Virus record (IMG/VR): IMGVR_UViG_3300006793_000018
Coordinates: 1-64,000 of that record
DNA: 64,000 nucleotides
Reading direction: 5' to 3' (one strand)
DNA from: a virus
Below are positions 8,070 to 40,569 of the stretch, in pieces (the first letter of the stretch is position 1; every line of letters starts with the position of its first letter). The notes under the pieces are model-generated. The model did no database searches, was not told the DNA's origin, and was given only the letters and a program-made list of their open reading frames with translations. Made by a program: the position numbers and the translations under genes.

Positions 8070-8120
8070 GTGTTTGTCCAGAAGGGCGGATTTATTTCAT
8101 CTTGTCGGGCATCTCAACGC

Positions 8121-8127
8121 TCATATA
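8121..8127 (+). promoter_or_regulatory. Putative archaeal TATA box (TCATATA)
   Basis: 30 nt upstream of ATG 8151; same heptamer at 28886-28892 before the protease gene. Confidence 0.5.
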
Positions 8128-8150
8128 GGTGTGAGGCATGAGAGGGAGTT

Positions 8151-8297
8151 ATGGGAAGACACGTGTCTGTCGTGATGAGGGAAGATCTTTTTATTAAAAT
8201 GGAACAAGAAAGAGGACGAGAATCAAAGTCATCTTTCATGAATCATGTTCTTGCATTTTACTTCAAAAACAAGACAACTGGAGATGACCATCAATGA
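8151..8297 (+). CDS. Ribbon-helix-helix (CopG/Arc-like) DNA-binding protein, 48 aa, absent from the ORF track
   Basis: Manual translation MGRHVSVVMREDLFIKMEQERGRESKSSFMNHVLAFYFKNKTTGDDHQ: strand, helix, G-x-x-S-K-S helix; ATGA overlap with 8294. Confidence 0.75.
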   Translation: MGRHVSVVMREDLFIKMEQERGRESKSSFMNHVLAFYFKNKTTGDDHQ

Positions 8298-8725
8298 CTA
8301 AAACCGATGCACAAACATATTACCCCGCCCCTTATGTCCAAGACGACTCAAATCGAATTGACGTGAACTTGATCGCAATGCTACTATGGCAAGCCCTTCT
8401 CACGGGAACCTCAGTTGCAGTATCCCACATGGGATGGTATCTTCCCGACGCAGGAGCCGCAGAAATGGGACTTCAATACGGTTTGATCTGCTTTGGCTTC
8501 CTCTGCACAGCAATGGTTCTTTTCCATGTAGGTGGAGTGCGAGATTCTCTTGCTATGCGAGCCGAGTTCGCTAAAGAGAACCAAGTGGACAAGTGGATGC
8601 GAGGTCAACAGCGGCTACATCAGCGTCGGGCCAATAAGAGAAATTATTGGCAGCAACAATCGGCACAATCCCCATCCGGCGTTCAGCAATTCGGAATACC
8701 TCAAAAGAAAGACGACGAAAACTGA
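8294..8725 (+). CDS. Membrane protein (2 predicted TM helices, Q/R-rich tail)
   Basis: Hydrophobic LIAMLLWQALLTGTSVAV and GLICFGFLCTAMVLFHV. Confidence 0.75.
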   Translation: MTKTDAQTYYPAPYVQDDSNRIDVNLIAMLLWQALLTGTSVAVSHMGWYLPDAGAAEMGLQYGLICFGFLCTAMVLFHVGGVRDSLAMRAEFAKENQVDKWMRGQQRLHQRRANKRNYWQQQSAQSPSGVQQFGIPQKKDDEN

Positions 8726-8736
8726 GGGGTATCCTT

Positions 8737-8961
8737 ATGTGGCCTTTCACAACTAACCAAGAACGTCAAACGGAGGCCATGTCCCAAATCTTGGCCGAAA
8801 ATGCGTATGAACGAAAGATGGAGAGGGTGGCAGGATGGGTAAGGACAGTTGTCGCCTTGATCGGAGGGGTGGCCCTAACATTCGGAATTTTGTTTGCATT
8901 GGAGATCTTTGGAATTTCTCCATCGGACGTGGTTGGCTTCTTCAAAGGCTTAAGCGGATAG
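8737..8961 (+). CDS. Small membrane protein (1 TM plus amphipathic end)
   Basis: ATG 8737 after GAGGGG; VVALIGGVALTFGILFALEIFGI. Confidence 0.7.
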   Translation: MWPFTTNQERQTEAMSQILAENAYERKMERVAGWVRTVVALIGGVALTFGILFALEIFGISPSDVVGFFKGLSG

Positions 8962-8968
8962 GTGGATT

Positions 8969-9703
8969 TTGATGTCAGCCCTTATCGCAGGGCATATGTT
9001 GATGGCATCAACCACTGCGCTTTATTCGTTGTATCGTGTATTGAAACCTTATCGCGTTGGGATATACGGTCCATCCTTGGTTGGCAAGACTACTCTCGAT
9101 CAGTATTTGACAGTCCCAGGTGATATTGAACCTATACCTTTGAATTTTCGCACAGCCCATCCTAAAGCGAAGACGCTAACTGGTTTCCAAGAGCCAAATG
9201 CTACCCGCAAGAAACTTCGATATAAACAAGAAAAAACTCCAGTTCAAACGGCAGATCTGGCGGGAGATCATATGTTTCGCAATTTGTGGGTCGATGATAT
9301 GTTTGGGCGAAAGGTTGAGTTGATCATTTACATGGTCGATCACAGATCATTAACATCTCCTCAGTTCGCAGCAGATGCTTCTGCGGGGTTGTCTTATTTG
9401 GTGGACAATATCATCAAACAAGATCTCAGCAAGAACATCTCTCGCAAGTCAAAGCGCAATTCAAAGAAATACACTCCTCGATTGTTTTGTTTGATGATCA
9501 ATAAGATCGATTTATGGTGGGATTCAAACGCTCAACAACTTTGGGAATACGGATTACAGAAGGAGCATCCTATTGTTGCCCCGTACAGAGATTCGTTGAA
9601 ACGTCTAAGGCGAGCCGGAATTAGGGCAGAAATCAAGGCAATATCATCTCAGCACGGCGTAAATGTCGAAAAATCATTGACTGAATTGCTTCAATCCATG
9701 TAG
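8969..9703 (+). CDS. Small Ras-superfamily GTPase, Arf/Sar1-like, with N-terminal hydrophobic helix
   Basis: G1 GPSLVGKTT, G3 DLAG followed by FRNLW, LIIYMVD strand, G4 NKID, G5 ISS.HG.NV. Confidence 0.85.
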   Translation: MMSALIAGHMLMASTTALYSLYRVLKPYRVGIYGPSLVGKTTLDQYLTVPGDIEPIPLNFRTAHPKAKTLTGFQEPNATRKKLRYKQEKTPVQTADLAGDHMFRNLWVDDMFGRKVELIIYMVDHRSLTSPQFAADASAGLSYLVDNIIKQDLSKNISRKSKRNSKKYTPRLFCLMINKIDLWWDSNAQQLWEYGLQKEHPIVAPYRDSLKRLRRAGIRAEIKAISSQHGVNVEKSLTELLQSM

Positions 9704-9713
9704 CGATGCCTTT

Positions 9714-10697
9714 ATGTTGCTGTCAACTATGGCAGGGTTAATGGCGTGGAATGCAAGTGCGTTCAACCCTTTCGGCGGGGGTATTTCTCTTCGTGGAATG
9801 AGCGACGAACAATTGAGGATTGTTGCTCAACAATCAGGAGTTTCGTATGATCTGTTGAAAACACAGCAACGTGCTGAGATGGCAAGTGCTGGTTCGACGG
9901 GAGATGTTGGCGATGAACAGTTGATTCCGACTGTCGAGATCCAATTGAAGTCCAACCCAAAAAACCCTGCAAAGGCACGAAAGAAAAACATCAAGATGCT
10001 TCGCAAGGCTTTGAGGCCACCATCTTATAACCTGGGTCTTTTCAAAATATACCGATACAATGCCGCTCACGAATGTGCTTGTTGCGGAGTTGACATTAGG
10101 CGATTCCTCGAAGGCGACAATGCATATGCACACATTGTCGATCAATCAACTGGGCTTTCCTTAGCAGACATTTATTGGTTTGATGAAGATACAGGAAATG
10201 CAAAAAAACCACTCGCACGGACACATGGAGATCATGGTGATGAAATGAACAGCACCCTCTGCCCCGCACACTTGCACATATACCACACACTGAGATCTAT
10301 CATGCAAGAGCATGAACTTGAGTCGCAGGGTTTCAAACGCTTTGCGAGTAAAGGAACCAAATTTACTAAGATTCCTGGAATGTCAACATTGATGCCTGGT
10401 GCATCCGCTGCTAAAAATCGAAGCACACCGGAATCTCTTCTCAAGTACGATCAGTTCTTCTCTATGATCCACAAAGATGCTCAACACAGCAAAGGAATAC
10501 ATTTGACACAATTGCCAAATCCCAGTACCGGAGTTGTTGATCTGGTACACATCACATTTGACCTAAGAGCAATTCAATCGGAAACGCTTTTGGCTCAAAG
10601 AAACTCTATGGGAATGGGCGTGAATATGCAGAATCAAATGAATAACGCTATAAATGCCTCTGGACAAGGCGTATTGACAGGAACTAACGAGGTGTGA
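9714..10697 (+). CDS. Hypothetical protein with Cys/His metal-binding cluster (probable start 9741)
   Basis: ECACCG ... HGDHG ... LCPAHLH; TTTATG at 9711 lies 30 nt before ATG 9741. Confidence 0.75.
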   Translation: MLLSTMAGLMAWNASAFNPFGGGISLRGMSDEQLRIVAQQSGVSYDLLKTQQRAEMASAGSTGDVGDEQLIPTVEIQLKSNPKNPAKARKKNIKMLRKALRPPSYNLGLFKIYRYNAAHECACCGVDIRRFLEGDNAYAHIVDQSTGLSLADIYWFDEDTGNAKKPLARTHGDHGDEMNSTLCPAHLHIYHTLRSIMQEHELESQGFKRFASKGTKFTKIPGMSTLMPGASAAKNRSTPESLLKYDQFFSMIHKDAQHSKGIHLTQLPNPSTGVVDLVHITFDLRAIQSETLLAQRNSMGMGVNMQNQMNNAINASGQGVLTGTNEV

Positions 10698-10700
10698 TTT

Positions 10701-11330
10701 ATGGGATGGTTTTCAAAAGGTGAAGCGCAACCAACTCAACAGTTTGGCGCACCGACGCAAATGGGTGGCATGTCTGGCATGGGAATGCCAATGGGAATGC
10801 AAATGGACCCGTCAATGATGGGGATGCAAATGGCTCAAAACCCAATGATGCAACAAATGGCAAGCGATCCTATTACCGCTACTGCACGTTTGCTTTCGCT
10901 AAATGATCCGTTGGCTCAGTTTATGACAACGCAAAATATGCCGTTGGTCATGGAGTTGATTGGGGAAATCGTTCGACTATCGATCAAGGAGTTTTTCTCT
11001 TCTGTTTCTTTCAAATTGGATGAGGCGACAGGTTTGCTAACATTGGATACTGCGAGTCTCCCTGCATCGATCAACACGATGTCTCCTGAGAATCTTGGAT
11101 TTACTATGACTCGATTGCAAGCGTCAGCGCAACAAACCTTGCAAATGAATGAACAACAAAGACAAATGTTCCTTCAAGCACACTCAATGGGCGGAATGAT
11201 GAATTCTCAACAACAACCAGGTTTCTTTGGAAGCCTCATTGGAGGAGTCCTTGGCAACCAAATGCAACAACAAGGTGGATTTGGTCAATCAGCCGCTAAG
11301 GTCGGCGCAATGGGGGCTGCTGTATTATGA
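10701..11330 (+). CDS. M/Q/G-rich protein with glycine-zipper-like C-terminus
   Basis: MGMPMGMQM repeats; GFFGSLIGGVLG and GAMGAAVL; SD GAGGTG. Confidence 0.75.
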   Translation: MGWFSKGEAQPTQQFGAPTQMGGMSGMGMPMGMQMDPSMMGMQMAQNPMMQQMASDPITATARLLSLNDPLAQFMTTQNMPLVMELIGEIVRLSIKEFFSSVSFKLDEATGLLTLDTASLPASINTMSPENLGFTMTRLQASAQQTLQMNEQQRQMFLQAHSMGGMMNSQQQPGFFGSLIGGVLGNQMQQQGGFGQSAAKVGAMGAAVL

Positions 11331-11578
11331 GCGACGAAGATGACATGAGGACGCCAAATCAAGCAAATGTGTACGGGCAAACCGTTGAATTGCTGAGTCC
11401 TAACAAAATGTTGGTCGAAAGTGCAACAATGATTTACATTCTCTCCTTTATGATCGCAATCTTTGTGATGCTGGTTTGGAAAGGAAGTTCGTTAAGTTCG
11501 GGACAAGTTTTGTTGGGTGCTTTAGGATTGATGTTCACTCTATCAATAGCAGTTCGACAGTTTGCTTCCTTTCGGTAG
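11327..11578 (+). CDS. Small 2-TM membrane protein (holin-like topology)
   Basis: MIYILSFMIAIFVMLVW and VLLGALGLMFTLSIAV. Confidence 0.7.
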   Translation: MSDEDDMRTPNQANVYGQTVELLSPNKMLVESATMIYILSFMIAIFVMLVWKGSSLSSGQVLLGALGLMFTLSIAVRQFASFR

Positions 11579-11591
11579 CCCCCCAAGTGAT

Positions 11592-11813
11592 ATGGGGCTT
11601 CGTGCTTACAACCCCTTGCCTTACAGCCCCGTGCTACGCCGGTTCGATCAAGACGGCGATGGCGACTTTGATTTGGAGGATGTAAAAATTCTTTTAGGCA
11701 AAAAAACCCTGTGCGGGGCCACGACAAGATCTGGACAGCCTTGCCAAAGCGCAGGGCATGAAAAATACAACAATCGATGCCATCAGCACAAAAGTGATGA
11801 CAAATCCAATTAA
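11592..11813 (+). CDS. Small protein with EF-hand-like loop and CCCH-type zinc knuckle
   Basis: DQDGDGDFDLED; CGATTRSGQPC...RCHQH. Confidence 0.65.
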   Translation: MGLRAYNPLPYSPVLRRFDQDGDGDFDLEDVKILLGKKTLCGATTRSGQPCQSAGHEKYNNRCHQHKSDDKSN

Positions 11814-11836: not shown

Positions 11837-12547
11837 ATGGCGGGACGACAGACTCGGAAGAATTGTCCATTCTGCCAACATCCTGATCGAGATTCATTGG
11901 AAGAAATGATTCGCAAGGGAATTCATGATGTCGAAGAAATTGATCGTTTGAATCAATGGGCAGATGGAACTTCCCACAGGCACATGCGGCGTCATTCGGG
12001 CGAATACTACAACAACAGCAATCATGATTGCCCATTGTGTACGGATCCTAACAGAGCCGAGATTGAAGCGGCTATTCTTGAGGGACACGCTGGAATCGAT
12101 GACTTTGCAACAGAGTTAGAGGTCGCAAGCAGTATCATTTCCAATCACATGGAAAAGCATACCAAGCCTATTATCCAACAACATGTGTCGATTGATGCTT
12201 TACCAACGGCAATGAAAAGCGTCCACGAATCATTGCAAAGGGTTGAAAAGAATTTGAATCGACTTGACCGATTGATGGGTCGTGTTCTTGATCATGTTGA
12301 AAATCAATTTGACGACGAAGACGAAATTGTCAATATGAGGGATGTCGAAACCGTTTTCAAGGGTCATCGTGAGATCCGTGATACTCTCCTCGAACTTGCA
12401 AAGTGGATGGATAAGGCAGAGTCGATTGATGAACGTCAGTCGGTTTCAGTCCTTACAGTCATGCAGGAGTATTTTGTTGAAAAATCACCGTCCGAATGGG
12501 CTGCTCTAAAATCAAGGCTGGTTTCCGCAGGGGTGATGAATGAATGA
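11837..12547 (+). CDS. Tandem Zn-HTH plus coiled-coil protein, candidate terminase small subunit
   Basis: Two repeats CPxCxxPxR..E...H M xxH, then coiled coil; position upstream of the head module. Confidence 0.55.
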   Translation: MAGRQTRKNCPFCQHPDRDSLEEMIRKGIHDVEEIDRLNQWADGTSHRHMRRHSGEYYNNSNHDCPLCTDPNRAEIEAAILEGHAGIDDFATELEVASSIISNHMEKHTKPIIQQHVSIDALPTAMKSVHESLQRVEKNLNRLDRLMGRVLDHVENQFDDEDEIVNMRDVETVFKGHREIRDTLLELAKWMDKAESIDERQSVSVLTVMQEYFVEKSPSEWAALKSRLVSAGVMNE

Positions 12548-18690: not shown

Positions 18691-20127
18691 ATGTCGGACG
18701 GGATGCAAGAACTGACCGCCAAAGTCGATTTTGAGATGGGGCGTCGTGATTTCAAATACTTTTTTGAAGAGGTATGTGGCAAATACGATCAACGCAACCC
18801 GTGGATCTTAACAAAATTTCACCAAGAATGGTACGATTTGTCGGAAGGCAACAGCAAGACCTGTATTATTGCAAGTCGTGACCATGGAAAGTCTGTTTTT
18901 TATCGCGTGTATTTGCTTTGGAAAATGGCATATAACCCAGGTACAGAAGTGTTGTTCTTTTCACACAGTCAACACCAATCGATTGAACACATGCAAAAAA
19001 TGAATGAGTTGATTGAGTCAATACCTGCCCTCCAACATCTCAAACCGAAGCGGGGATGGGCGAAGCAGAAGTTCAAGTTCACAAACAAATCCTCGATCTC
19101 CGCTATGTCGGTTGGAAAGGCAGTTCGTGGAGCGCACCCTCAAATTGTAGTCCTTGACGACATATTGTCAAGTGAAGCGCAAACTCAATTAAAACATATC
19201 TCATCGTGGTTTTACACCGCATTGTTGCCCGTTCTTCACCACACGGCTCAACTCTGTATTGTCGGAACTCCATTTTCATATACTGATCTGTATGCTGAAT
19301 TAAAGAAATTAAAATCATACGCTGTTCGAGAGTACCCCGCGATCAATGAAAGATCTGGAGAACCTTTGTTTCCTGAGCGTTGGTCGCTTGAGGCTTTGAA
19401 CAATCGGCGCAATGATATGACTTCCATCGCGTTCACAAGAGAATATCTATGCAAACCAATTGCAAGCGATGCCAGCCTTTTCCCAGAAGAAGTGTTGAAT
19501 TCTGTAAAAGATGATCAAATGGCACTTTCTTATTATCCTCGTCCAGATCAGGAATTGAATTATTACATCGGATGGGATCCTGCCATATCTGCAAATCGAA
19601 AGGCAGACTATACTTGCATGATGGTCATTGCGATGGATGAGAATAGGCATAAACACATTGTTCATACTCATCACGAAAAAGGAATGGACTTCTCTTCTCA
19701 AATCGATAAAATCATCGAATTAAACGCAAGATTCAATCCAGTGATTATCGAATTGGAAACAAACAATTTCGCAATGGCGTTCAATCAAGTCCTTGCTGAG
19801 ATCGGTGATCTTCCGATAAAACCATTCAATATGAGTCGAATGAAGAAAGAGGCTTTAATTCATACCCTCCAACTGCACTTTGAACGGGGACACCTCATAA
19901 TCCCCTACAAAGACGAGGGAGCGACTTTGAGATTGATGAATAATTTGCTAACAGAACTCTCCACTTTCACCATGCTCGACAACGGTCGAATGGAAAGTCT
20001 TGGAGGACACGACGATATGGTTATGGCCCTCGCTCTCTCCGTTCAGGCTACAAAGGAGTACCGTGACAACATTGTGATACTCGACGCAGAACAATGGCAA
20101 TCAAGATTGGGGTGGGCAGGTGCTTAA
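18691..20127 (+). CDS. terL: Terminase large subunit
   Basis: Walker A SRDHGKS, RGAHP..VVLDD Walker B, VGTP, nuclease IGWDPA, HDDMVMALAL. Confidence 0.95.
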   Translation: MSDGMQELTAKVDFEMGRRDFKYFFEEVCGKYDQRNPWILTKFHQEWYDLSEGNSKTCIIASRDHGKSVFYRVYLLWKMAYNPGTEVLFFSHSQHQSIEHMQKMNELIESIPALQHLKPKRGWAKQKFKFTNKSSISAMSVGKAVRGAHPQIVVLDDILSSEAQTQLKHISSWFYTALLPVLHHTAQLCIVGTPFSYTDLYAELKKLKSYAVREYPAINERSGEPLFPERWSLEALNNRRNDMTSIAFTREYLCKPIASDASLFPEEVLNSVKDDQMALSYYPRPDQELNYYIGWDPAISANRKADYTCMMVIAMDENRHKHIVHTHHEKGMDFSSQIDKIIELNARFNPVIIELETNNFAMAFNQVLAEIGDLPIKPFNMSRMKKEALIHTLQLHFERGHLIIPYKDEGATLRLMNNLLTELSTFTMLDNGRMESLGGHDDMVMALALSVQATKEYRDNIVILDAEQWQSRLGWAGA

Positions 20128-21343
20128 GGAAATCAAGGGAATTGATGGCGTTGAATCCATCGCAGAGGCTTTGCTAAAGTTGGATGCGAACCAAGTTATC
20201 GATCAAGAGTTGAAAGTCAATGCTCAAGAGAAAAAAGTTCTTCAAGACAAAAAGCAAGTCAACAGCAAACTTGGAAACGTTGGGAGTCCAAGAGAAGAAT
20301 CTGGAATAGAAGGGATGGATTCTCCTCAAAGTTCTGCGCCAACACAGCAACCAGGTACTGAATTACTGGGCAAGTCATGGTTCCGAGATAACTTTGGGAT
20401 GGAGGGAACTGAGATCTGCGAGATATTTATCAAAGGAGGTCGTGAGGATTTGATACCTGTTCTGCAACCTTTGATTCGAGCAGAACGAATTGCTCTCTTA
20501 AAATCGTACCCTTCCGTGTCCGAATCATTGATTGATGAGTTGCCATTCACTGATTTTGATTATTCGATGCTCCAAAGGAATCCAAAATCGTTAGAAATCC
20601 CATTTAGGCGTCTTGTGAAATCATGGAATGACTCCACAAGCGATCATGAACGAGAGAAATCATATGATGCATGGTCAAATCGTATTTCAAAGAAGGATCA
20701 TCTAACCATTAGGGAACATGGATTGTTGCAGAAATGTGCCGAATATCTCAATGATAACGGCGCAATGAATGCTCAATCTTTACAATCATATGGGTTTGCT
20801 GCCAGTTCCAGTGAAATTTCAATGCTAATCAAATCACATGGATTCCTTTACAACATCTCTGCGGTTGGAACAAGCCAAAAGAAAAACATGCGTGGCACAT
20901 TTTATGACGTTGAACGAGGAGATCTTATGATCAAAAACGCCGGTGCATTGATCGGGGGATTGTTTGATCATGGAGGGCAAATACAACTTAATCCTCAAGG
21001 CTCGCCCCGTCTTATTCTCCCGTTTAATTCAGCAATATGCAAACATTATGCTGACTCTTTGAATAATGAACTGGGAGTCATGGGAGTTATTGCAGAAGGC
21101 GATGGCATTGTCATTGAAGGTGAAGACGCTGTTTCAAAATCGCTGGATGTGGCAATACCATTTATCCACAACAAAACAAGCGAAGCAATTATCTTAAAGA
21201 AGGCAATTGAATTGGACGATAATGCAATGAGATGTTTGACATATGATCACTCATCGAGTCGCCACAAGGTTTCTCTCTTGAAATCATGGGGCATGTCCGA
21301 CGAACAATTACTTGCTATGAAGGAGAGTGTTGTAAATGGCTGA
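20120..21343 (+). CDS. Hypothetical protein with degenerate LAGLIDADG-like C-terminal domain
   Basis: AGALIGGLFDHGGQIQLNPQGSPRL...LNNELGVMG resembles the LAGLIDADG helix-strand unit; lies between terL and portal. Confidence 0.5.
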   Translation: MLKEIKGIDGVESIAEALLKLDANQVIDQELKVNAQEKKVLQDKKQVNSKLGNVGSPREESGIEGMDSPQSSAPTQQPGTELLGKSWFRDNFGMEGTEICEIFIKGGREDLIPVLQPLIRAERIALLKSYPSVSESLIDELPFTDFDYSMLQRNPKSLEIPFRRLVKSWNDSTSDHEREKSYDAWSNRISKKDHLTIREHGLLQKCAEYLNDNGAMNAQSLQSYGFAASSSEISMLIKSHGFLYNISAVGTSQKKNMRGTFYDVERGDLMIKNAGALIGGLFDHGGQIQLNPQGSPRLILPFNSAICKHYADSLNNELGVMGVIAEGDGIVIEGEDAVSKSLDVAIPFIHNKTSEAIILKKAIELDDNAMRCLTYDHSSSRHKVSLLKSWGMSDEQLLAMKESVVNG

Positions 21344-23132
21344 TCGTAAAAAAATGGAGCGGCTGTTTTCCGCCATCGGAATGGACATGGAAAGGCACAC
21401 TACCCCAATGCCGTCCATGCCTTTATTCCAATCAGGAATACAAGAACCTGCTTTGTTGCAAGGGATTACCATCCCTGCGCTTTATGCTGCATCGTATGAG
21501 TGCGTCGTGCTTCGATCAATCCTAAACCACTTGTCCGTTGAAACATTCCGTAAAGGATTTGGCTGGAAGCCTAAATTTGTTGTAAAGTGCCGTTCATGTG
21601 AAGAAACCTACAATCAAGAAGTTGATGAGTGTCAAAAATGTGGAGGAGAAGTTCGCAAAGCCGACAAATCTCAATTGGAATATGCTGAGTCTTTGATTTC
21701 TTCACAGAATAATATGTTACAAGATTTCATTGAAATTCTTCGTGAAATTGAAATGGATCTAAACATTGTCGATGATGCATACCTGATCTTAACGAAAGAA
21801 TACTTTGTTGATCCTGATACCAAGAAGGTGATGTTTTATCGGGTAAAGGAAATCAGTCGAGCAGATCCTATTTTTATGCGGATACTTGCAGATAAGAGAG
21901 GGGTTCGAGGTGGAAGCCAATACACAAGTCTTGTTGATCGTACCTTCCGAACCAATGACCCAAAGAAAAAGTGTCCAACAACAGGAACCCCTGTTGTTCC
22001 AATTCACTACATGAACCTTGCAGGAGTCGGCAAAGGGCAGGTATATACCGAGGGCGAAGTCATACACATTAGCAAATGGTCGCCATCGAAATTGTATGGT
22101 CGAAGTCCTGTTGCAACGATGTGGCGACAAGTCAATACCCTCATTGCAATGGACAACTATGTTTATTCTGCTTACCAAAAGAAGCGTATGCCACGTGGAG
22201 TTATGGTGATCAAGTCATCGAACATGGAAACTGTTGAACGAACTGCTCGGAGTATTCAAGAACACCTTGAGCGTGATCCAAATTACATACCAACAATCGG
22301 TGTCGAAACTGAATCGGGACGGGGCGGTTTGGAGTATGTCCGAATGATGGACACTCTTGAAGAATTGCAATACATCCCGATCAAGGATGACATCCGCCAG
22401 CGTATTGCTGCCTTCTTTGGGGTTTCCAATGTATTTATGAACGATGTATCGGGTGGTGGGCTGAATAACGAAGGAATGCAAATTGTGGTTAGCAATCGTT
22501 CCGTCGCTTACGCCCAGTCAATTTACAATCGAGTTCTTTTCCCTCAAATCTCAGAGGCATTCGACGTCACCGAATGGGAATTGAAACTCAACCCGCATGA
22601 AGAGGAAGACGAAATCATGCATCTCCGAAGAGATGAAATGGCAATTCGTAACATGATGCAGATGAAGCAAGCCGGTTATGAAGCAAGCCTTCGAGATGGA
22701 ATTGATGACAAGATATTGCACTTCGACTTTAGGGAGCCAAATCCAGAAGAAGTCGCTGCCGCTCAACAAGCCGCTGCCGCTCAACAAGGAGGACAGGGAG
22801 GGCAACAGGTGGCAAAAACGGACGAAGGATTCCTTGATGATCCAAACATCGTCATGAAACGGACAACTTTCGATTCCTCGCGTGGATCGGTAGTAGTTCC
22901 TTCTGCCATGCACAACGCAATGGATCCAACAAATGATCTCCCCCCGCTGAGAACGATTAGTCAAAACACAAGAAATTCAGCAGGAGCATCACCAGGTATG
23001 GTGAAAAGGCAAGAAGGATCTCCGACAGGCGCAAGCAGCAAGACTGACAAACGGAGTCTAAAATCTCCTGCCGAAGTCGCAACTGATGCAAAGTTGAACC
23101 AAATGAAAAAGCGCAATGGATTGGATGAATGA
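21336..23132 (+). CDS. Portal protein (with Zn-ribbon insertion)
   Basis: D..IVDDAYL, EVIH...PSKLYGRSP, MPRGVM, IAAFFGVS; CRSC..CQKC insertion; position after terL. Confidence 0.9.
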   Translation: MADRKKMERLFSAIGMDMERHTTPMPSMPLFQSGIQEPALLQGITIPALYAASYECVVLRSILNHLSVETFRKGFGWKPKFVVKCRSCEETYNQEVDECQKCGGEVRKADKSQLEYAESLISSQNNMLQDFIEILREIEMDLNIVDDAYLILTKEYFVDPDTKKVMFYRVKEISRADPIFMRILADKRGVRGGSQYTSLVDRTFRTNDPKKKCPTTGTPVVPIHYMNLAGVGKGQVYTEGEVIHISKWSPSKLYGRSPVATMWRQVNTLIAMDNYVYSAYQKKRMPRGVMVIKSSNMETVERTARSIQEHLERDPNYIPTIGVETESGRGGLEYVRMMDTLEELQYIPIKDDIRQRIAAFFGVSNVFMNDVSGGGLNNEGMQIVVSNRSVAYAQSIYNRVLFPQISEAFDVTEWELKLNPHEEEDEIMHLRRDEMAIRNMMQMKQAGYEASLRDGIDDKILHFDFREPNPEEVAAAQQAAAAQQGGQGGQQVAKTDEGFLDDPNIVMKRTTFDSSRGSVVVPSAMHNAMDPTNDLPPLRTISQNTRNSAGASPGMVKRQEGSPTGASSKTDKRSLKSPAEVATDAKLNQMKKRNGLDE

Positions 23133-28914: not shown

Positions 28915-30303
28915 TTGATGACGGCAGCAAACCTCTCAGTATCCTCCGCAACATGGTCTGCGGATGGCTCTGATTTTTTGCTAAAATCTGCTGCATCAAA
29001 CGGCGATCTATTCGTCGCAGGATATGCATCGGTCGATATGGTCGATAAGCAGGGAGATCGTATCCCAGTCCCTGCGCTAAAGAAGGCATTCAATCAATTC
29101 ATGGGCAACAAGGCATTCCGCAATGTCCAGTTGGCACACTCTGGCATCCAAGTTGGAGAAGTTGTTTCCGATTACAAAGATACAGAAGGCCGACTTTGGA
29201 AATCCGAAGTCGATGATCATGGATTGTTCGTTGTTTGCAAGATCCGCAACGACATTCAAAAGGCACGTGAAGTGCAGAAGCAAATCCGCAATGGAGAACT
29301 ACGGGCGTTCTCAATTGGCGGTCAGGCACTATTTCGTGTGTCGAAAACAACCCCCGAACTCGGTACTCATCGTGAGATTACCGACCTTGAACTCCATGAG
29401 ATCACACTCTGCAAGAAGGGAATCAACCCTGAAGCAGCGTACACGATCCTAAAAATGGACGGAGATGACAACATGAGCAATACAGAAGTGTTAAACGAAA
29501 TTAAGGCAGGACTTTCCGAAGTTCTCAAAGAATTGAATGAAGGAAAGTCGGATGCAAAGACTGACGACAAATACATGAAAAATGTCGATTGTGACGATGA
29601 GGGCAACCCTATCGGACAAAAAGGCGATGACAAGATGAAGAAAGCCCAACAGGACGACGCTCTTGCATACATCGATACCCTCGAAAAGTTCGCTCACCAA
29701 TCTGGTGTTGATCTCGACGGACTCCGTGATCACTTTGGTTTGGAGAAGGCTTACCTTCCAGAACAAGGATCTGGCGGATACTCTCACCGAGGACAAGGCG
29801 ATGAAGTTGGATCTGGCGAAGATGCAACCGAACCATCGTACCCATCTCTCCCAAGTCCTGGCGGCAACCAATATGTGATCAAGGGGCCAAGTGTTCCTAA
29901 CATGAACATGGGCGCACCATCGGGCAACCAAAACGTCATCAAGTCCCTCACCCCAGAAACTCTGGAAAAGGGATACCGAACCTACGCTGCCCTTCGTGAC
30001 GAAGAAGCCGTGAAGGGTCTTGTCGAAAAGGAATGGCAGGAACGCTACAACGCAGAAACCGCACAGGCTCTCGAAGTTCGCAAAGCCAACGATGTCGGCG
30101 CACAAATCCACGCTCTCCGTGAAGAGATCTCGATGCTCAAGTCAGAGAATGTCGATCTCCAAAAGAGCGCAACCCCTGTGCCATCCGCACCAACCACTTC
30201 CATCCGAGTACCAACCCACGATGAATTTTCCCAAATGGGATCTGACCTCGAAGGCTGGCGAGCCGCAGAAGCACTTGCTATGCGAGCATTGCGAGGGGAA
30301 TAA
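28915..30303 (+). CDS. Prohead protease fused to scaffold region
   Basis: VAGYASVDMVDKQGD, QLAH..IQVG, GLFV, RAFSIGG, LHEITLC..G.NP; acidic coiled-coil C-terminal half; directly upstream of MCP. Confidence 0.9.
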   Translation: MMTAANLSVSSATWSADGSDFLLKSAASNGDLFVAGYASVDMVDKQGDRIPVPALKKAFNQFMGNKAFRNVQLAHSGIQVGEVVSDYKDTEGRLWKSEVDDHGLFVVCKIRNDIQKAREVQKQIRNGELRAFSIGGQALFRVSKTTPELGTHREITDLELHEITLCKKGINPEAAYTILKMDGDDNMSNTEVLNEIKAGLSEVLKELNEGKSDAKTDDKYMKNVDCDDEGNPIGQKGDDKMKKAQQDDALAYIDTLEKFAHQSGVDLDGLRDHFGLEKAYLPEQGSGGYSHRGQGDEVGSGEDATEPSYPSLPSPGGNQYVIKGPSVPNMNMGAPSGNQNVIKSLTPETLEKGYRTYAALRDEEAVKGLVEKEWQERYNAETAQALEVRKANDVGAQIHALREEISMLKSENVDLQKSATPVPSAPTTSIRVPTHDEFSQMGSDLEGWRAAEALAMRALRGE

Positions 30304-38796: not shown

Positions 38797-39146
38797 GGTA
38801 CGAGGATTTGGTTGCTTTTCTTGATGAAGATCTGCCAGAAGAGGATCGGCCTCAACTCAATCTTTCCCAAGCAACCATTTTATCGTACCAAGCAATTACA
38901 TTCGCCCTTGGAACGCATTTCAACTGCCCCCCCCATTTTTGGGATGATCAGCCTCCAGATCGGGTTCTGCTCGATTACATGATTGTGCGAGCAGCCGCAG
39001 ATAAGAAGGCGGAGATGCTCGAACGGATGAAGAAACAGGCAGAAAGGCAAATGAAACACGGAAGAGGCAATAAGGGGCAACCACTACGCACAACAAGCGA
39101 TGCCGACTTCTTTGAGCGTCATAATCAAAAAATAAGTGGTGATTAA
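38784..39146 (+). CDS. Tail assembly chaperone frameshift extension (gpT-like)
   Basis: -1 frame relative to the 38437 ORF, reading PFGVGYEDLVAFLDE...; no clear independent SD. Confidence 0.7.
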   Translation, partial: PFGVGYEDLVAFLDEDLPEEDRPQLNLSQATILSYQAITFALGTHFNCPPHFWDDQPPDRVLLDYMIVRAAADKKAEMLERMKKQAERQMKHGRGNKGQPLRTTSDADFFERHNQKISGD

Positions 39147-40569
39147 GATCGGACAACTTGACGAATATGTTTCATCTCTCGCTAAGATGAATGTTCTCAA
39201 CAAGAAAAACGCAAAATCAGCAAATCTTCTCAACATTCAATACAAACTGATGCAAAAGACATTTGGCCCATTTTTAGATCTGTTTATCGACACCAAAAAC
39301 ACATTTGAAACTGCCAAAGAAGTGCTTCCTAAATTCACCGACGAGGTGGAAAAGGTGGGAGAGGCTGTTGAGGTGGCAATGGGTCCAATTGGGTTGATGT
39401 TGAAGGCAATTCGTATGATGAACACTTCTATGATCATGATCTTAGGTATTTTTGCCGCCGTTGGTGCTGCGGTATATTTGCTTTCGTCTTACGTAGGAGA
39501 GGGCGCAGGGAATTTTGAAATTCTCAACAAAGTCGGTGAAGCATCTAAGGGATTATTCGCAGCGATCAAGGATACTTTTGACACACTAATGGGGGCGTTA
39601 GGAGGATTTGATTTTGAAGGCACAGCAACAGTTGTGTTGGCAGGTTTGCAGGGAATTTTTGATGGTTTAGGGATGATCCTGATCGTATTTATCACTCTTT
39701 ACACAGAGATTATATTGGGAATTGGCACAATCGTACAAAAGATGGAGGAAGCAGGTATGATCCAAAGAATAATCGATTCAATTGGGGTTTTGGTCGGCTC
39801 AGTTGCTGTTGCTTTTGGGTTCATCTTCTCGGCTCTTGATGAGACTGGATTTACCTTTGAAGACTTACTCGACGGTATTCGCTCGTCGTTTGACATGGTG
39901 ATCAAATTTCTTTTCAGTAGCGGCCTCATTGAATTTGTAGTGAGGGTGATCGAACTGATTTCGGCTGTTTGGTCAATTATTATCGTTGTTTTTGGCGCAC
40001 TTGTGTCGATATACATCAAAGTGTGGGCGAGACTCGGACCTCCGATGGTTAGGTTCGTCCTTGCTGTATTCGCATTCTTGGATCCAATTGTTCGGATTGT
40101 CACAGGGATTTTAGGGGTGATTATGGACAAAGTGATGCAATTGATTACTTGGTTATTGCCGTATTTCTCCGCAGGAATGGGTACGCTCATGGAAACACTT
40201 GAACCCATCATCGATAAGGTCGCATGGCTGATAGACGGAATTAGTTCCGTGGTCAGTAGCGTTGGTGGCAAGATAAGCGGTGCTGCTGACTACTTGGGAT
40301 TCAGCGATGGTGGAGTAGCAAGCGGTCCATCCAGTGGCTATCCGGTAGCATTACATGGAACAGAAGCAGTTGTTCCACTTCCTGACGGGCGAACGATCCC
40401 TGTTTCGATAAAAGGCGACATGGGCGGTGGAGGAAGCACAAATAACATCACCATTAACGTCAGCGGAGGAGGCAATGCAAAGGAGATTGCAAAGGCTGTT
40501 AGTGAGGAAGTTAGCAAGGTCATGCGAACCAAATCACGTGGCAATTCCTACACAAGGGGCGTGATTTGA
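39136..40569 (+). CDS. Tape measure protein (short, hydrophobic)
   Basis: Follows chaperones; helical hydrophobic repeats; C-terminal FSDGG..SGP..GY...LHGTEAVVPL, NNITINV. Confidence 0.8.
   Translation: MVIKIGQLDEYVSSLAKMNVLNKKNAKSANLLNIQYKLMQKTFGPFLDLFIDTKNTFETAKEVLPKFTDEVEKVGEAVEVAMGPIGLMLKAIRMMNTSMIMILGIFAAVGAAVYLLSSYVGEGAGNFEILNKVGEASKGLFAAIKDTFDTLMGALGGFDFEGTATVVLAGLQGIFDGLGMILIVFITLYTEIILGIGTIVQKMEEAGMIQRIIDSIGVLVGSVAVAFGFIFSALDETGFTFEDLLDGIRSSFDMVIKFLFSSGLIEFVVRVIELISAVWSIIIVVFGALVSIYIKVWARLGPPMVRFVLAVFAFLDPIVRIVTGILGVIMDKVMQLITWLLPYFSAGMGTLMETLEPIIDKVAWLIDGISSVVSSVGGKISGAADYLGFSDGGVASGPSSGYPVALHGTEAVVPLPDGRTIPVSIKGDMGGGGSTNNITINVSGGGNAKEIAKAVSEEVSKVMRTKSRGNSYTRGVI

What the first reader, a model, noticed from the sequence alone, without database searches (positions are those of the whole stretch)
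8121..11813. RHH-headed membrane/GTPase operon: candidate egress, lysis or vesicle module
Seen: TATA-like box, RHH regulator (8151), 2-TM protein, 1-TM protein, small GTPase, Cys/His protein, M/Q/G-rich protein with a glycine-zipper-like end, 2-TM holin-sized protein and an EF-hand/Zn-knuckle protein, tightly packed just before the packaging genes. These are the only clear integral membrane proteins in the window besides TMP, and no endolysin is present. Inference: since lysis of wall-less or S-layer archaea by tailed viruses is poorly understood, this may be a GTPase-timed membrane rupture or budding machine, or a superinfection-exclusion system.
Basis: inference. Interest (0 to 1): 0.78.

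Follow-up and report, generated by a model that had tools for sequence, protein, structure and literature searches.

The report
Magrovirus Arf-like GTPase membrane cassette
A tailed virus of the abundant ocean archaea Marine Group II carries its own very divergent Arf-type GTP switch in a deeply conserved block with three small membrane proteins, a zinc protein and a Met/Gln/Gly-rich protein; it is an untested candidate for how such viruses act on, or break out through, the host membrane.

Summary
The genes are real and lie where stated. The window is 64 kb of a 90.3-kb tailed virus with a thermosome gene, that is, magrovirus-like.

Conservation:
- The run g1 to g12 is colinear in 18 of 18 close IMG/VR loci.
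- The core, g2 (TM), g3 (1 TM), g4 (GTPase), g5 (Cys/His), g6 (M/Q/G-rich) and g7 (2 TM), is colinear in 91 of 91 loci of two clades.
- A third clade keeps g2-g3-g4-g5-g6 beside the thermosome gene and away from the packaging genes.
- The RHH-like head (g1) and the EF/Zn protein (g8) are clade-specific.

The GTPase has all its G motifs. It is nearest to Arf/Arl and Asgard ArfR, but passes no family threshold. Its N-terminal helix is not a TM anchor. Its partners are orphans and are not homologous to ArvB or ArvC.

Function is inferred only. I read it as a GTP-switched complex on the host membrane. Release is the likeliest purpose (about 0.35).

No paper I could search describes it. This scan has already found the cassette on other DNA: 83 notes in at least 65 genomes.

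The parts
8114..8127 (+). Conserved TATA-like box (TCAACGCTCATATA), 24-30 nt upstream of the g1 start codon. Candidate archaeal promoter of the operon.
   Evidence: Read. Its core is conserved in the alignment of the 123 bases before g1 in 16 loci. Promoter function is inferred.
8151..8297 (+). g1: a 48-aa protein with a strand-helix-turn-helix pattern like ribbon-helix-helix regulators. Specific to the window's clade.
   Evidence: ORF. Found in 17 of 18 close loci and 26 of 91 loci after HMM iteration. 18 invariant columns in 15 sequences. No Pfam match at E<=1. Best PDB profile match E 0.32. The RHH pattern is recalled, not shown.
8294..8725 (+). g2: 143-aa membrane protein with two hydrophobic segments and a basic, Gln-rich C-terminal tail.
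   Evidence: Segments 26-44 and 64-82. Found in 87 of 91 loci and 54 of 80 clade-3 loci. Only sub-threshold Pfam hits (PpoB2, 20.7 bits against 28.7).
8737..8961 (+). g3: 74-aa protein with a conserved charged N-terminal region and one hydrophobic segment.
   Evidence: Translation. Found in 18 of 18 close loci. The HMM finds it in 27 of 91 loci. An ORF of 72-85 aa sits between g2 and the GTPase in all four clade-2 and all three clade-3 loci inspected; it scores as 1-TM in six of the seven (the L151 copy is below the threshold).
8972..9703 (+). g4: 243-aa small GTPase (a TTG at 8969 would add one residue). It has an N-terminal weakly hydrophobic helix, P-loop GPSLVGKT, DLAGD, NKID, and a polybasic insert before G4.
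   Evidence: motifs in 39 of 39; insert net charge +5 to +11; residue after DxxG is Q in 17, E in 13, D in 9. PDB profile best match is 8oun (GerdArfR1), E 7.6e-6, followed by Arl8/Arl10, Rab33 and Arf1. AF2 model pLDDT 68. VIA Z 12.0 to Arl10C. Found in 91 of 91 loci and 76 of 80 clade-3 loci.
9714..10697 (+). g5: 327-aa orphan protein with an invariant Cys/His set (C121, C183, H186, H188) and a basic NPKNP..KARKK patch. Probable zinc protein.
   Evidence: Alignments. Found in 91 of 91 and 80 of 80 loci. No Pfam or PDB relative with deep profiles. Only 130 hits among 1.84 billion representatives, none shown to lie outside this family (all unannotated; one is a 1,527-aa protein hit by 15 short stretches). 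AF2 failed (pLDDT 40). Zinc binding is inferred.
10701..11330 (+). g6: 209-aa Met/Gln/Gly-rich protein with a conserved middle part and a Gly-rich hydrophobic C-terminal tail (GFFGSL.GG.LG).
   Evidence: Alignments. Found in 91 of 91 loci. Positional analogues of 235-250 aa in three clade-3 loci. No Pfam, PDB or Atlas relative.
11327..11578 (+). g7: 83-aa protein with two hydrophobic segments.
   Evidence: Segments 32-50 and 58-76. Found in 91 of 91 loci after iteration. Not detected in clade 3. Pfam RseC_MucC 26.3 bits against 24.4, on the hydrophobic hairpin only. No PHROG.
11562..11813 (+). g8: 83-aa protein (73 aa if it starts at the ATG at 11592) with a DQDGDGDFDLED loop and a C-terminal Cys/His knuckle. 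Clade-specific.
   Evidence: Found in 10 of 18 close loci and 27 of 91 loci. EF-hand Pfam hits are sub-threshold. The knuckle part of its HMM hits a small ORF between g2 and g3 in 32 of 80 clade-3 loci.
11837..12547 (+). g9: 236-aa Zn-ribbon + helix-turn-helix + coiled-coil protein directly downstream. Candidate small terminase or regulator. Part of the conserved run, but not of the membrane cassette.
   Evidence: Found in 91 of 91 loci. HTH_20, Sigma70_r4_2 or GerE hits in 22-23 of 42 members. GerE 1fse, E 0.002. Absent next to the cassette in clade 3.

Best explanation
The block is one conserved viral machine built round a virus-specific Arf-like small GTPase. Its core is g2, g3, g4, g5 and g6, plus g7 in two clades.

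Proposed working (inferred):
1. It is transcribed from the structural arm, behind a conserved TATA-like box.
2. The GTPase in its GTP form lies on the inner face of the host cytoplasmic membrane, held by its N-terminal hydrophobic helix and its polybasic insert.
3. The small integral membrane proteins g2, g3 and g7 have conserved parts that I take to face the cytoplasm. They act as its membrane receptors or targets.
4. The zinc protein g5 and the low-complexity protein g6 act as regulator and effector or scaffold.
5. GTP hydrolysis sets the timing.

The purpose I think most likely is to reshape or breach the membrane of the host, which I recall as lacking a murein wall, so that finished tailed virions get out.

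Shown: the genes, their strict co-occurrence and order, the GTPase motifs and fold class, and the hydrophobic segments.

Inferred: membrane binding of the GTPase, contacts among the products, late timing, and the purpose.

My odds:
- A joint, membrane-linked GTPase system: about 0.7.
- Egress as its purpose: about 0.35. The confidence given for this explanation is that of the whole statement, purpose included.
For: 1. Co-occurrence. g1-g12 are colinear in 18 of 18 close loci. g4, g5, g6, g7 and g9 are in 91 of 91 loci, g2 in 87 of 91, and the order is kept in 91 of 91. A positional 1-TM g3 was seen in 4 of 4 clade-2 loci inspected.

2. Autonomy. A third clade has g5 in 80 of 80 loci, the GTPase in 76 of 80 and g2 in 54 of 80. 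In the three long loci inspected it keeps g2-g3-g4-g5-g6 beside the thermosome gene, without g9 or packaging genes. By tblastn, only the GTPase, g5 and the thermosome are shared with this genome.

3. Core status.
- Records rated 98-100% complete hold the cassette.
- GTPase identity to those clades is 38-57%, against TerL 46-80%.

4. GTPase class. All G motifs are present in 39 of 39. The PDB profile's best match is Asgard GerdArfR1 (8oun, E 7.6e-6), then Arl8/Arl10. The five best VIA matches are all Arl proteins (Z 12.0-11.4, rmsd 2.8-3.2, 130-137 aligned). hhalign to ArvA gives probability 95, E 3e-8, over the N-helix end, P-loop and switch I.

5. Membrane link.
- An N-terminal helix precedes the G domain.
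- The insert has a net charge of +5 to +11 in 39 of 39.
- Three neighbouring genes have hydrophobic segments.

6. Precedent. ArvA, an archaeal small GTPase with an N-terminal amphipathic helix, drives vesicle formation with two operon partners, one of them a Zn protein (PMC10927574, passages).

7. The players in egress of archaeal tailed viruses are described as completely uncharacterised (PMC10791045, passages).

8. The host order seems to lack the cellular counterpart. OapB was found in 0 of 41 genomes of the order, against 60 of 121 of the phylum sample. No GTPase relative was found in 150 of 151 genomes.
Against: - No product matches any holin, lysin, coat, GEF or GAP family.
- The partners are not homologous to ArvB or ArvC (hhalign probability 0.5 or less).
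- The GTPase passes no curated family threshold. Pfam hits are split: Roc 15, Arf 15, MMR_HSR1 11, Ras 7 and SRPRB 5 of 39, all sub-threshold.
- By bits it is as far from ArvA (17-21) as from Arl8 (20).
- Rag GTPases tie structurally with the Arl matches (Z 11.3).
- The half of the model that holds the N-helix and the switch regions has low confidence.
- Lysis genes of phages are usually variable and often swapped. A strictly conserved, slowly evolving core block looks more like an assembly or replication-cycle function.
- Late timing rests only on strand and position.
- No fused forms were found (weak evidence).
Confidence: 0.35

Rival explanations
1. A membrane-bound platform or compartment for virion assembly, DNA packaging or replication. 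The GTPase and the membrane proteins would organise a site on the membrane where proheads, terminase or the replisome work. The low-complexity protein g6 would act as scaffold.
For: - The block has strict core-gene behaviour and co-linearity with g9 (HTH protein, candidate small terminase), g10-g12 and TerL in two clades.
- In clade 3 the block sits directly after the chaperonin gene on the same strand.
- It evolves only somewhat faster than TerL.
Against: - Adjacency to the packaging genes is lost in clade 3.
- No cassette protein matches any morphogenesis family.
- From recall: tailed viruses are not known to need a GTPase for assembly.
Confidence: 0.25
2. A vesiculation or host-manipulation device that works like ArvABC. 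It would drive release of membrane vesicles, or alter the envelope (decoys, receptor removal, superinfection exclusion), rather than release virions.
For: - The architecture parallels ArvA plus a Zn-protein partner, which control vesicle output in Haloferax (PMC10927574, passages).
- hhalign to ArvA gives probability 95 over 50 columns.
- Hosts searched lack OapB (0 of 41), so the virus could supply a function that the host lacks.
Against: - The partners are not homologous to ArvB or ArvC.
- The ArvA match covers only the N-terminal fifth.
- From recall: exclusion and decoy genes are usually accessory and variable. This block is universal.
Confidence: 0.15
3. A targeting or insertion aid for viral membrane proteins. 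This would be an SR-beta-like GTPase, with a Met-rich protein (g6) that shields hydrophobic segments of g2, g3, g7 or of the large C-terminally anchored protein of clade 3.
For: - Weak SRPRB Pfam hits: 15 bits for the window protein and 5 of 39 members.
- g6 is Met- and Gln-rich.
- SR-beta appears at VIA Z 9.9 (7obq).
Against: - SRPRB is below its cut-off (25 bits).
- The N-terminus is not a TM anchor.
- g6 has no detectable relative.
- The likeness of g6 to Met-rich chaperone domains is recalled only and was not supported by any search.
Confidence: 0.07
4. There is no joint function. These are neighbouring but independent small genes, kept in order only by shared descent.
For: - All loci come from one viral lineage, so synteny partly reflects descent.
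- No interaction was tested.
Against: - The order is kept while flanks change. The upstream methylase and the minus-strand gene are missing in many loci.
- The whole block is relocated next to the thermosome gene in clade 3.
- GTPase identity falls to about 35% there.
Confidence: 0.05

Closest known systems
ArvA-ArvB-ArvC (OapABC), the archaeal vesiculating GTPase operon of Haloferax volcanii and other Euryarchaeota (PMC10927574, passages read)
   Same: - A small Ras-superfamily GTPase with an N-terminal helix before the G domain, encoded in an operon with small partners, one of them a Cys-rich Zn protein.
- The P-loop context R[IV]GIYGP..GKTTL and the switch-I IP.E.R motif are shared.
- hhalign gives probability 95, E 3e-8.
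   Different: - The match covers only 50 columns.
- G3 differs: DTPG in ArvA against D.[AG]G[QED]..F[RW]NLW here.
- g5 is not ArvC and neither g5 nor g6 is ArvB by hhalign (probabilities 0.5, 0.07 and 0.13); the other cassette products gave no OapB match in Pfam at E<=1.
- The viral block adds three integral membrane proteins.
- It is viral, and the host order lacks OapB in the 41 genomes searched.
Arf-family GTPases: eukaryotic Arf, Arl8, Arl1, Arl3 and Sar1, and Asgard ArfR such as GerdArfR1 (PDB 8OUN; bioRxiv 10.1101/2024.02.28.582541, passages)
   Same: - Best sequence-profile matches in the PDB and best structural matches.
- An N-terminal helix.
- Switch II aligns with the GQ..FRNLW stretch of GerdArfR1.
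   Different: - Pfam Arf is never above threshold, and there is no Arf hit for the window's own protein.
- About 15-20 extra residues between G1 and G3, and a polybasic insert before G4. The comparison with Arf1 spacing is recalled.
- The catalytic Gln is D or E in 22 of 39.
- No Sec7-type, ArfGAP-type or coat partners.
Phage holin-based lysis cassettes
   Same: Small 1-2 TM proteins (g3, g7 and g2) clustered in the late arm of a tailed virus.
   Different: - No holin family match and no muralytic enzyme beside them.
- Strictly conserved instead of variable.
- Built round a GTPase and two soluble orphans, which no known lysis cassette has (recalled).
SR-beta, the membrane-anchored Arf-like GTPase of the SRP receptor
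   Same: A small GTPase with an N-terminal hydrophobic segment. Weak Pfam SRPRB hits.
   Different: Below the cut-off. The N-terminus is too weakly hydrophobic for a TM anchor. No SR-alpha-like partner was found.

Membership tests
Ras-superfamily small GTPase | G1 (GxxxxGK[ST]), G3 (DxxG) and G4 (NKxD) motifs in order, and a Rossmann-like G-domain fold | tested here: met
   The motifs are present in 39 of 39 relatives. Foldseek and VIA matches are all GTPase G domains. TIGR00231 small_GTP hits 26 of 39, sub-threshold.
Arf family | Match to the curated family model (Pfam PF00025) above its threshold | tested here: not met
   15 of 39 members hit Arf at E<=0.1 (best 8.4e-4). The window's protein has no Arf hit. 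Roc matches equally often.
Arf family | N-terminal amphipathic helix before the G domain | tested here: inconclusive
   A 19-29 residue N-terminal extension is present in 39 of 39, with median hydrophobic moment 0.34 and best KD 1.0. It is modelled as a helix, but at pLDDT 31-43.
Arf family | Arf-type switch II and interswitch sequence (DxGGQ...R..W, recalled) and the interswitch toggle | tested here: inconclusive
   D[ILVM][AG]G[QED]..F[RW]NLW aligns with GerdArfR1. Gln is kept in only 17 of 39. The toggle itself cannot be tested with these tools.
Arf family | Closest solved structures are Arf or Arl | tested here: met
   VIA ranks 1-5 are Arl10C, Arl1, Arl8b, Arl10B and Arl3 (Z 12.0-11.4). 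However, LokiRagO and Rag/Gtr tie within 1 Z unit.
ArvABC (OapABC) | GTPase of the ArvA family | tested here: inconclusive
   hhalign probability 95, E 3e-8, over 50 columns only. The HMM scores 17-21 bits, no better than for Arl8.
ArvABC (OapABC) | ArvB (OapB, PF09846) partner in the operon | tested here: not met
   No OapB hit for any of the eight window proteins at E<=1. hhalign of g5 and of g6 against ArvB gives probabilities 0.07 and 0.13. g2, g3, g7 and g8 were tested by Pfam only.
ArvABC (OapABC) | ArvC (DUF2072 Zn-ribbon) partner | tested here: not met
   hhalign of g5 against ArvC gives probability 0.5 over 9 columns. No such Pfam hit in 45 g5 members.
Holin (two-TM class) | Small protein with two TM segments | tested here: met
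   g7 is 83 aa with segments 32-50 and 58-76. This is a shape, not a function.
Holin (two-TM class) | Match to a described holin family, or an adjacent endolysin | tested here: not met
   No holin family in Pfam or PHROGs for g2, g3 or g7. None of the 30 window proteins scanned gave a lytic-enzyme family.
Holin (two-TM class) | Timed, lethal hole formation in the membrane | not testable with these tools
   Needs expression experiments.
Ribbon-helix-helix regulators | Match to an RHH model or a solved RHH protein | tested here: inconclusive
   No Pfam family at E<=1. The best PDB profile match is a designed 38-aa protein, E 0.32. The strand-helix-G.S-helix pattern is recalled.
EF-hand | Match to EF-hand models above threshold | tested here: not met
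   EF-hand_6 scores 15.3 bits against 25, and EF-hand_1 scores 13.7 against 25.4. A single DxDxDG-type loop is in 19 of 27 orthologues.
SR-beta | SRPRB model above threshold and an N-terminal TM anchor | tested here: not met
   15 bits against a cut-off of 25, and 5 of 39 members. The best 19-residue KD value has median 1.0, below 1.6.

The most novel reading that the evidence does not exclude
Magroviruses carry a self-contained, eukaryote-style membrane-trafficking switch. The parts would be an Arf-like GTPase, small membrane receptors (exchange-factor-like), a zinc protein (GAP-like) and a low-complexity scaffold. Together they would bend, bud or cut the membrane of a euryarchaeal host whose order, in the 41 genomes searched, lacks the ArvB partner (OapB) of the ArvABC system. 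This would be the long-missing egress machine of archaeal tailed viruses, or would build an intracellular membrane compartment for them.
Probability: 0.15. Interest if true: 0.9.

Novelty: new variant of a known kind. Interest (0 to 1): 0.62.

Why it matters
Marine Group II archaea and their magroviruses are among the most abundant microbe-virus pairs of the surface ocean (abstracts of PMC5434244 and PMC10160649, listing). Neither has been cultured.

How tailed archaeal viruses leave their cells is an open question. The review I read in passages says the main players are still completely uncharacterised (PMC10791045).

This work gives a concrete gene set to test:
- It is a five- to six-gene block kept in every relative examined, built round a membrane-type GTP switch.
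- It can be tested by expression in Haloferax or another tractable archaeon, without culturing the host.

The finding also bears on GTPase evolution. Arf-like, helix-bearing GTPases that act on membranes would extend to viruses of a host order with no detectable cellular relative of this GTPase (only the SAG's viral contig among 151 genomes) and no OapB in the 41 genomes searched. That matters for the spread and evolution of this switch outside eukaryotes and Asgard archaea.

Tried and rejected
**Searches that found nothing**
- PHROGs: no usable family for any cassette protein.
- tblastn of the GTPase against 50,697 phage records: no match.
- ESM Atlas for g5 and g6: nothing usable.
- Deep-profile PDB searches: g5 best E 0.3 (shallow profile E 0.91). 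g6 none (shallow E 1.3).
- Pfam on 45 g5 members: only scattered hits in 4 members or fewer.

**g5 structure**
- AF2 failed (pLDDT 40), so no fold search was made on it.

**My idea that g6 resembles Met-rich STI1/DP-type chaperone domains**
- This is recalled. No search supported it, so I dropped it as evidence.

**More distant relatives of g5**
- P0173 and P0186 were not found in IMG/VR.
- The metagenome scan then found them.

**Nature of clade 3 (virus or other element)**
- Not settled. Its records are not held.
- Pfam on ten flanking proteins of L107 gave only an HNH endonuclease and Zn-ribbon hits.
- Pfam on ten cassette-side proteins of L107 gave a SWIB domain and sub-threshold hits.

**Other attempts**
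- Fused longer forms of the GTPase: none at E<=1e-5 among 8,000 candidates (weak evidence).
- Sequencing runs: 17 DNA holders listed and no RNA holder listed.
- tRNA scan of the window: none.

**Literature**
- 'magrovirus' + 'GTPase': 0 papers.
- 'Poseidoniales' + 'virus' + 'Arf-like': 0 papers.
- 'GTPase' occurs 0 times in the main texts of PMC5434244, PMC11706807, PMC10160649 and PMC12999244.
- Their supplementary gene tables were not seen and may list a GTPase annotation.

Full report
**What the window is.** It is the first 64 kb of a 90.3-kb IMG/VR virus record rated 85% complete.
- It encodes a large terminase (18691-20127), a portal (21336-23132) and a prohead protease (28915-30303).
- It also encodes DNA methylases and a GP88-family protein.
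- On the other arm are a PD-(D/E)XK nuclease, a C5 methylase and a Cpn60/TCP-1 chaperonin.
- Philosof et al. 2017 (PMC5434244, passages) describe magroviruses of Marine Group II archaea. They have a replicative block and a structural block, and groups A and D have a thermosome subunit.
- The ICTV profile (PMC12999244, passages) gives 90-110 kb genomes with the two modules transcribed in opposite directions. This window fits that picture.
- There is a direct host link. The one scan of species genomes found a 53%-identical copy of the GTPase on a 106-kb contig of a single-cell genome titled 'uncultured Candidatus Poseidoniales archaeon AG-422-I20' (L096).
- The other four hits lie on 8-16 kb contigs of MAGs named Parvibaculum, Maricaulis and Promethearchaeati. 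I take these for mis-binned viral contigs (inference).

**The observation.**
Gaps are 12 bases or fewer, or stop and start overlap.
- A crude hydropathy scan of 102 called genes of the whole record gives two segments in g2 and two in g7. Inside the window, only the 39136-40569 protein also has segments.
- g3 was lost from that gene set to an overlapping ORF, but its hydrophobic stretch is plain in the translation.
- The box CTCATATA at 8120-8127, with TCAACG before it, is the conserved part of the 123 bases upstream of g1 in 16 loci. It lies 24-30 nt before the ATG. That is the spacing expected of an archaeal TATA box on a short-leader mRNA (established knowledge; function not shown).

**Conservation.**
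- *Close relatives.* The GTPase found 18 IMG/VR loci at 49-88% identity. tblastn of 17 window proteins on them shows g1-g12 on one strand in one order in all 18. L005 is cut inside the block. g8 is present in 10 of 18. The upstream methylase and the minus-strand gene come and go.
- *A second clade.* Two more distant GTPase relatives from the 5.8-billion-protein search gave 73 further loci.
  - First-pass HMMs found g4, g5, g6 and g9 in 73 of 73.
  - After three rounds over all 91 loci: g4, g5, g6, g7 and g9 are in 91 of 91, g2 in 87, g12 in 86, g10 in 66, g3, g8 and g11 in 27, and g1 in 26. The order is kept in 91 of 91.
  - In four clade-2 loci that I read by eye, an 80-85 aa one-TM ORF sits between g2 and the GTPase. 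So g3 is there too, beyond the HMM's reach.
- *A third clade.* A full HMMER pass of the g5 profile over 1.84 billion representatives gave only 130 hits. Most are fragments, but they include shorter, more divergent proteins of about 255 aa.
  - An alignment of seven of these (A10) found 354 tblastn-confirmed places in metagenome contigs, and 80 were kept.
  - Among those 80, many of them short contigs, g5 is in 80, the GTPase in 76 and g2 in 54.
  - In the three long loci I read, the order is: chaperonin, small ORF, g2-like TM protein, a 72-aa g3-like ORF (one TM by the scan in two of the three; the L151 copy is below the threshold), GTPase, g5, a 235-250 aa Met/Gln/Ala-rich g6-like protein, and then a 690-883 aa protein with a C-terminal TM segment. 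No g9 follows, and the + strand run ends soon after.
  - By tblastn at 1e-5, only three proteins of this genome are recognisable in those 80 loci: the GTPase (74), g5 (80) and the thermosome (53).
- *Conclusion.* The cassette g2-g3-g4-g5-g6 is a unit that keeps together while its surroundings change. The RHH-like head and the EF/Zn protein are clade-level additions.

**How conserved it is.** Against complete or near-complete records, identities are as follows.

| Protein | Record of L012 | Clade-2 records |
|---|---|---|
| TerL | 80% | 46-47% (records of L036, L022, L042) |
| GTPase | 57% | 38-40% (L022, L036; the L042 copy is not in the alignment) |
| g5 | 62% | 29-30% (L036, L022, L042) |

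- The block therefore evolves somewhat faster than the terminase, but it is retained like a core gene.
- In 151 genomes of the host order, the GTPase profile finds only the viral contig of the single-cell genome. I therefore see no cellular source and no common provirus in those searched.

**The GTPase.**
- *Motifs.* G1, G3 and G4 are present in 39 of 39 aligned relatives. The residue after DxxG is Q in 17, E in 13 and D in 9, including the window.
- *Sequence matches.* The profile's best solved relative is 8oun (E 7.6e-6), which is GerdArfR1, an Asgard Arf-related protein (bioRxiv 10.1101/2024.02.28.582541, passages). Arl8/Arl10, Rab33 and Arf1 follow.
- *Model.* The AF2 model is middling: mean pLDDT 68, blocks of 75-93 from residue 101 on, and below 50 for most of residues 1-98.
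  - Foldseek puts Rab and Rac first at E about 5e-4.
  - The VIA second look puts five Arl proteins first (Z 12.0-11.4, rmsd 2.8-3.2 A, 130-137 aligned), with Rag-type GTPases within one Z unit.
- *Family thresholds.* No curated threshold is passed: Roc 15, Arf 15, MMR_HSR1 11, Ras 7 and SRPRB 5 of 39 members, all weak. TIGR00231 hits 26 of 39, sub-threshold.
- *N-terminus.* The extension is 19-29 residues, too weakly hydrophobic for a TM helix (median best KD 1.0) and moderately amphipathic.
- *Insert.* A 22-24 residue insert before G4 carries a net charge of +5 to +11 in all 39. I read the helix and the insert together as a membrane-binding face (inference).

**Comparison with ArvABC.**
- The review on archaeal virus egress (PMC10791045, passages) led me to Mills et al. 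2024 (PMC10927574, passages).
  - ArvA is a small GTPase with an N-terminal amphipathic helix, and it is needed for vesicle formation in Haloferax.
  - ArvB (DUF2073) and the Zn-ribbon protein ArvC lie in the same operon and change vesicle output.
  - The viral GTPase matches ArvA with probability 95, E 3e-8, but only over 50 columns: the end of the N-helix, the P-loop with the shared GIYGP..GKTTL context, and switch I.
  - By HMM bits (17-21), ArvA is no closer than Arl8 (20) and is further than GerdArfR1 (29).
  - g5 is not ArvC, and neither g5 nor g6 is ArvB (probabilities 0.5, 0.07 and 0.13).
- So the cassette works like ArvABC in outline, as far as one can infer, but it is not a copy of it.
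- OapB is found in 0 of 41 genomes of the host order and in 60 of 121 of the phylum sample. The controls ring in Haloferax and Methanosarcina.

**The other products.**
- g5 keeps C121, C183, H186 and H188 and 22 other columns invariant across 45 sequences that are only 27-34% identical between clades.
- g6 keeps little beyond two prolines and its overall make-up across clades. Within the window's clade its Gly-rich tail is invariant at six positions.
- None of g2, g3, g5, g6 or g8 has a family above threshold.
- g7 just passes RseC_MucC (26.3 bits against 24.4), but only on its hydrophobic hairpin. I do not take that as homology.
- g9, just downstream, has two Cys pairs, a helix-turn-helix (GerE, sigma-70 region 4 or HTH_20 in 22-23 of 42 members) and a coiled-coil tail. 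It is a candidate small terminase or regulator.

**What it most likely does.**
- The shown facts are a conserved, relocatable block, a membrane-type small GTPase at its centre, three integral membrane proteins, and two conserved soluble orphans.
- From the established behaviour of Arf-family proteins and ArvA, I infer a GTP-switched complex on the inner face of the host membrane (about 0.7).
- Its place on the structural arm suggests late action.
- The host, as I recall, has no murein wall, so breaching the membrane could suffice for release. The egress machinery of archaeal tailed viruses is unknown. I therefore put release first (about 0.35).
- Next come a membrane platform for assembly or packaging (0.25), vesiculation or envelope manipulation (0.15), a targeting aid (0.07) and no joint function (0.05).
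- The strict conservation is the main point against a lysis role and in favour of the platform reading.

**Novelty.**
- I found no paper that holds 'magrovirus' and 'GTPase', or 'Poseidoniales', 'virus' and 'Arf-like'.
- Four magrovirus papers do not use the word GTPase in their main text. Their supplements were not seen.
- Two proteins in the big collection carry the JGI name 'GTPase SAR1 family protein', so automatic annotation has noticed the G domain.
- Within this scan the cassette has been reported many times on other genomes, with the same reading: 83 notes in at least 65 genomes, 25 of them naming ArvA.
  - tested the ArvA/B/C comparison directly;
  - counted OapB and the GTPase in the host order;
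  - found the relocated clade-3 form beside the chaperonin;
  - found the single-cell host link.

Noticed in passing
window 11837-12547: g9 has two Cys pairs (a Zn-ribbon-like N-terminus), a GerE/sigma-70-region-4-type helix-turn-helix and a coiled-coil tail. It is present in 91 of 91 loci, directly after the cassette. It is a candidate small terminase or late regulator.
   Followed up: partly
L096 (Poseidoniales single-cell genome AG-422-I20, contig of 106,262 bases); L180: A virus-sized contig in a single amplified genome of the presumed host order carries the GTPase at 53% identity. This gives a physical virus-host link for this lineage.
   Followed up: partly
L095, L097, L098, L099: Contigs of 8-16 kb carrying the viral GTPase are filed in MAGs named Parvibaculum, Maricaulis and Promethearchaeati. 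They are probably viral contigs binned by mistake.
   Followed up: no
L059:10767-10964; L073:10714-10962: In some clade-2 loci a small ORF is inserted between the GTPase and g5. By eye its sequence looks like an AbrB/SpoVT-type swapped-hairpin DNA binder. Clade 2 lacks the RHH-like g1, so the regulator at the block may have been exchanged. The family name is recalled and was not tested.
   Followed up: no
L107:6365-7915, L101:6418-7980, L151:6267-7814: In clade 3 the chaperonin gene lies directly upstream of the cassette on the same strand. In the window's genome it lies on the other arm (L020:15240-16847, minus strand).
   Followed up: partly
window 10701 (g6 start); L036:9742, L107:8997 (g3-like starts); L187, L188 (ArvA starts): g6 of the window's clade (MGWFSK...), g3 of clades 2 and 3 (MGRIFK..., MGLIFK...) and some ArvA proteins (MGIFDR..., MGLFSR...) begin with a similar Met-Gly-hydrophobic-Phe motif. 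This may be a short membrane-binding N-terminus. It is an unexplained observation.
   Followed up: no
host order and phylum genomes (G001-G144): The ArvB/OapB family was found in none of 41 genomes of the host order, but in 60 of 121 genomes sampled from its phylum.
   Followed up: partly
L036:6791-6997, L059:7913-8227 and 8229-9002: Genes upstream of the cassette in clade-2 loci start with the same F/W..AW..[IL].K leader that another note describes for this genome (MIPLEEAWAIIK, MSAFDEAWDVIEK, MSDFFNEAWHLLK).
   Followed up: no
window 39136-40569: A 477-aa protein with about eight hydrophobic segments in the tail region.
   Followed up: no
L107:16601-16906: A 101-aa SWIB/MDM2-domain protein (35.4 bits against a cut-off of 25) ends the + strand run after the clade-3 cassette.
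   Followed up: no
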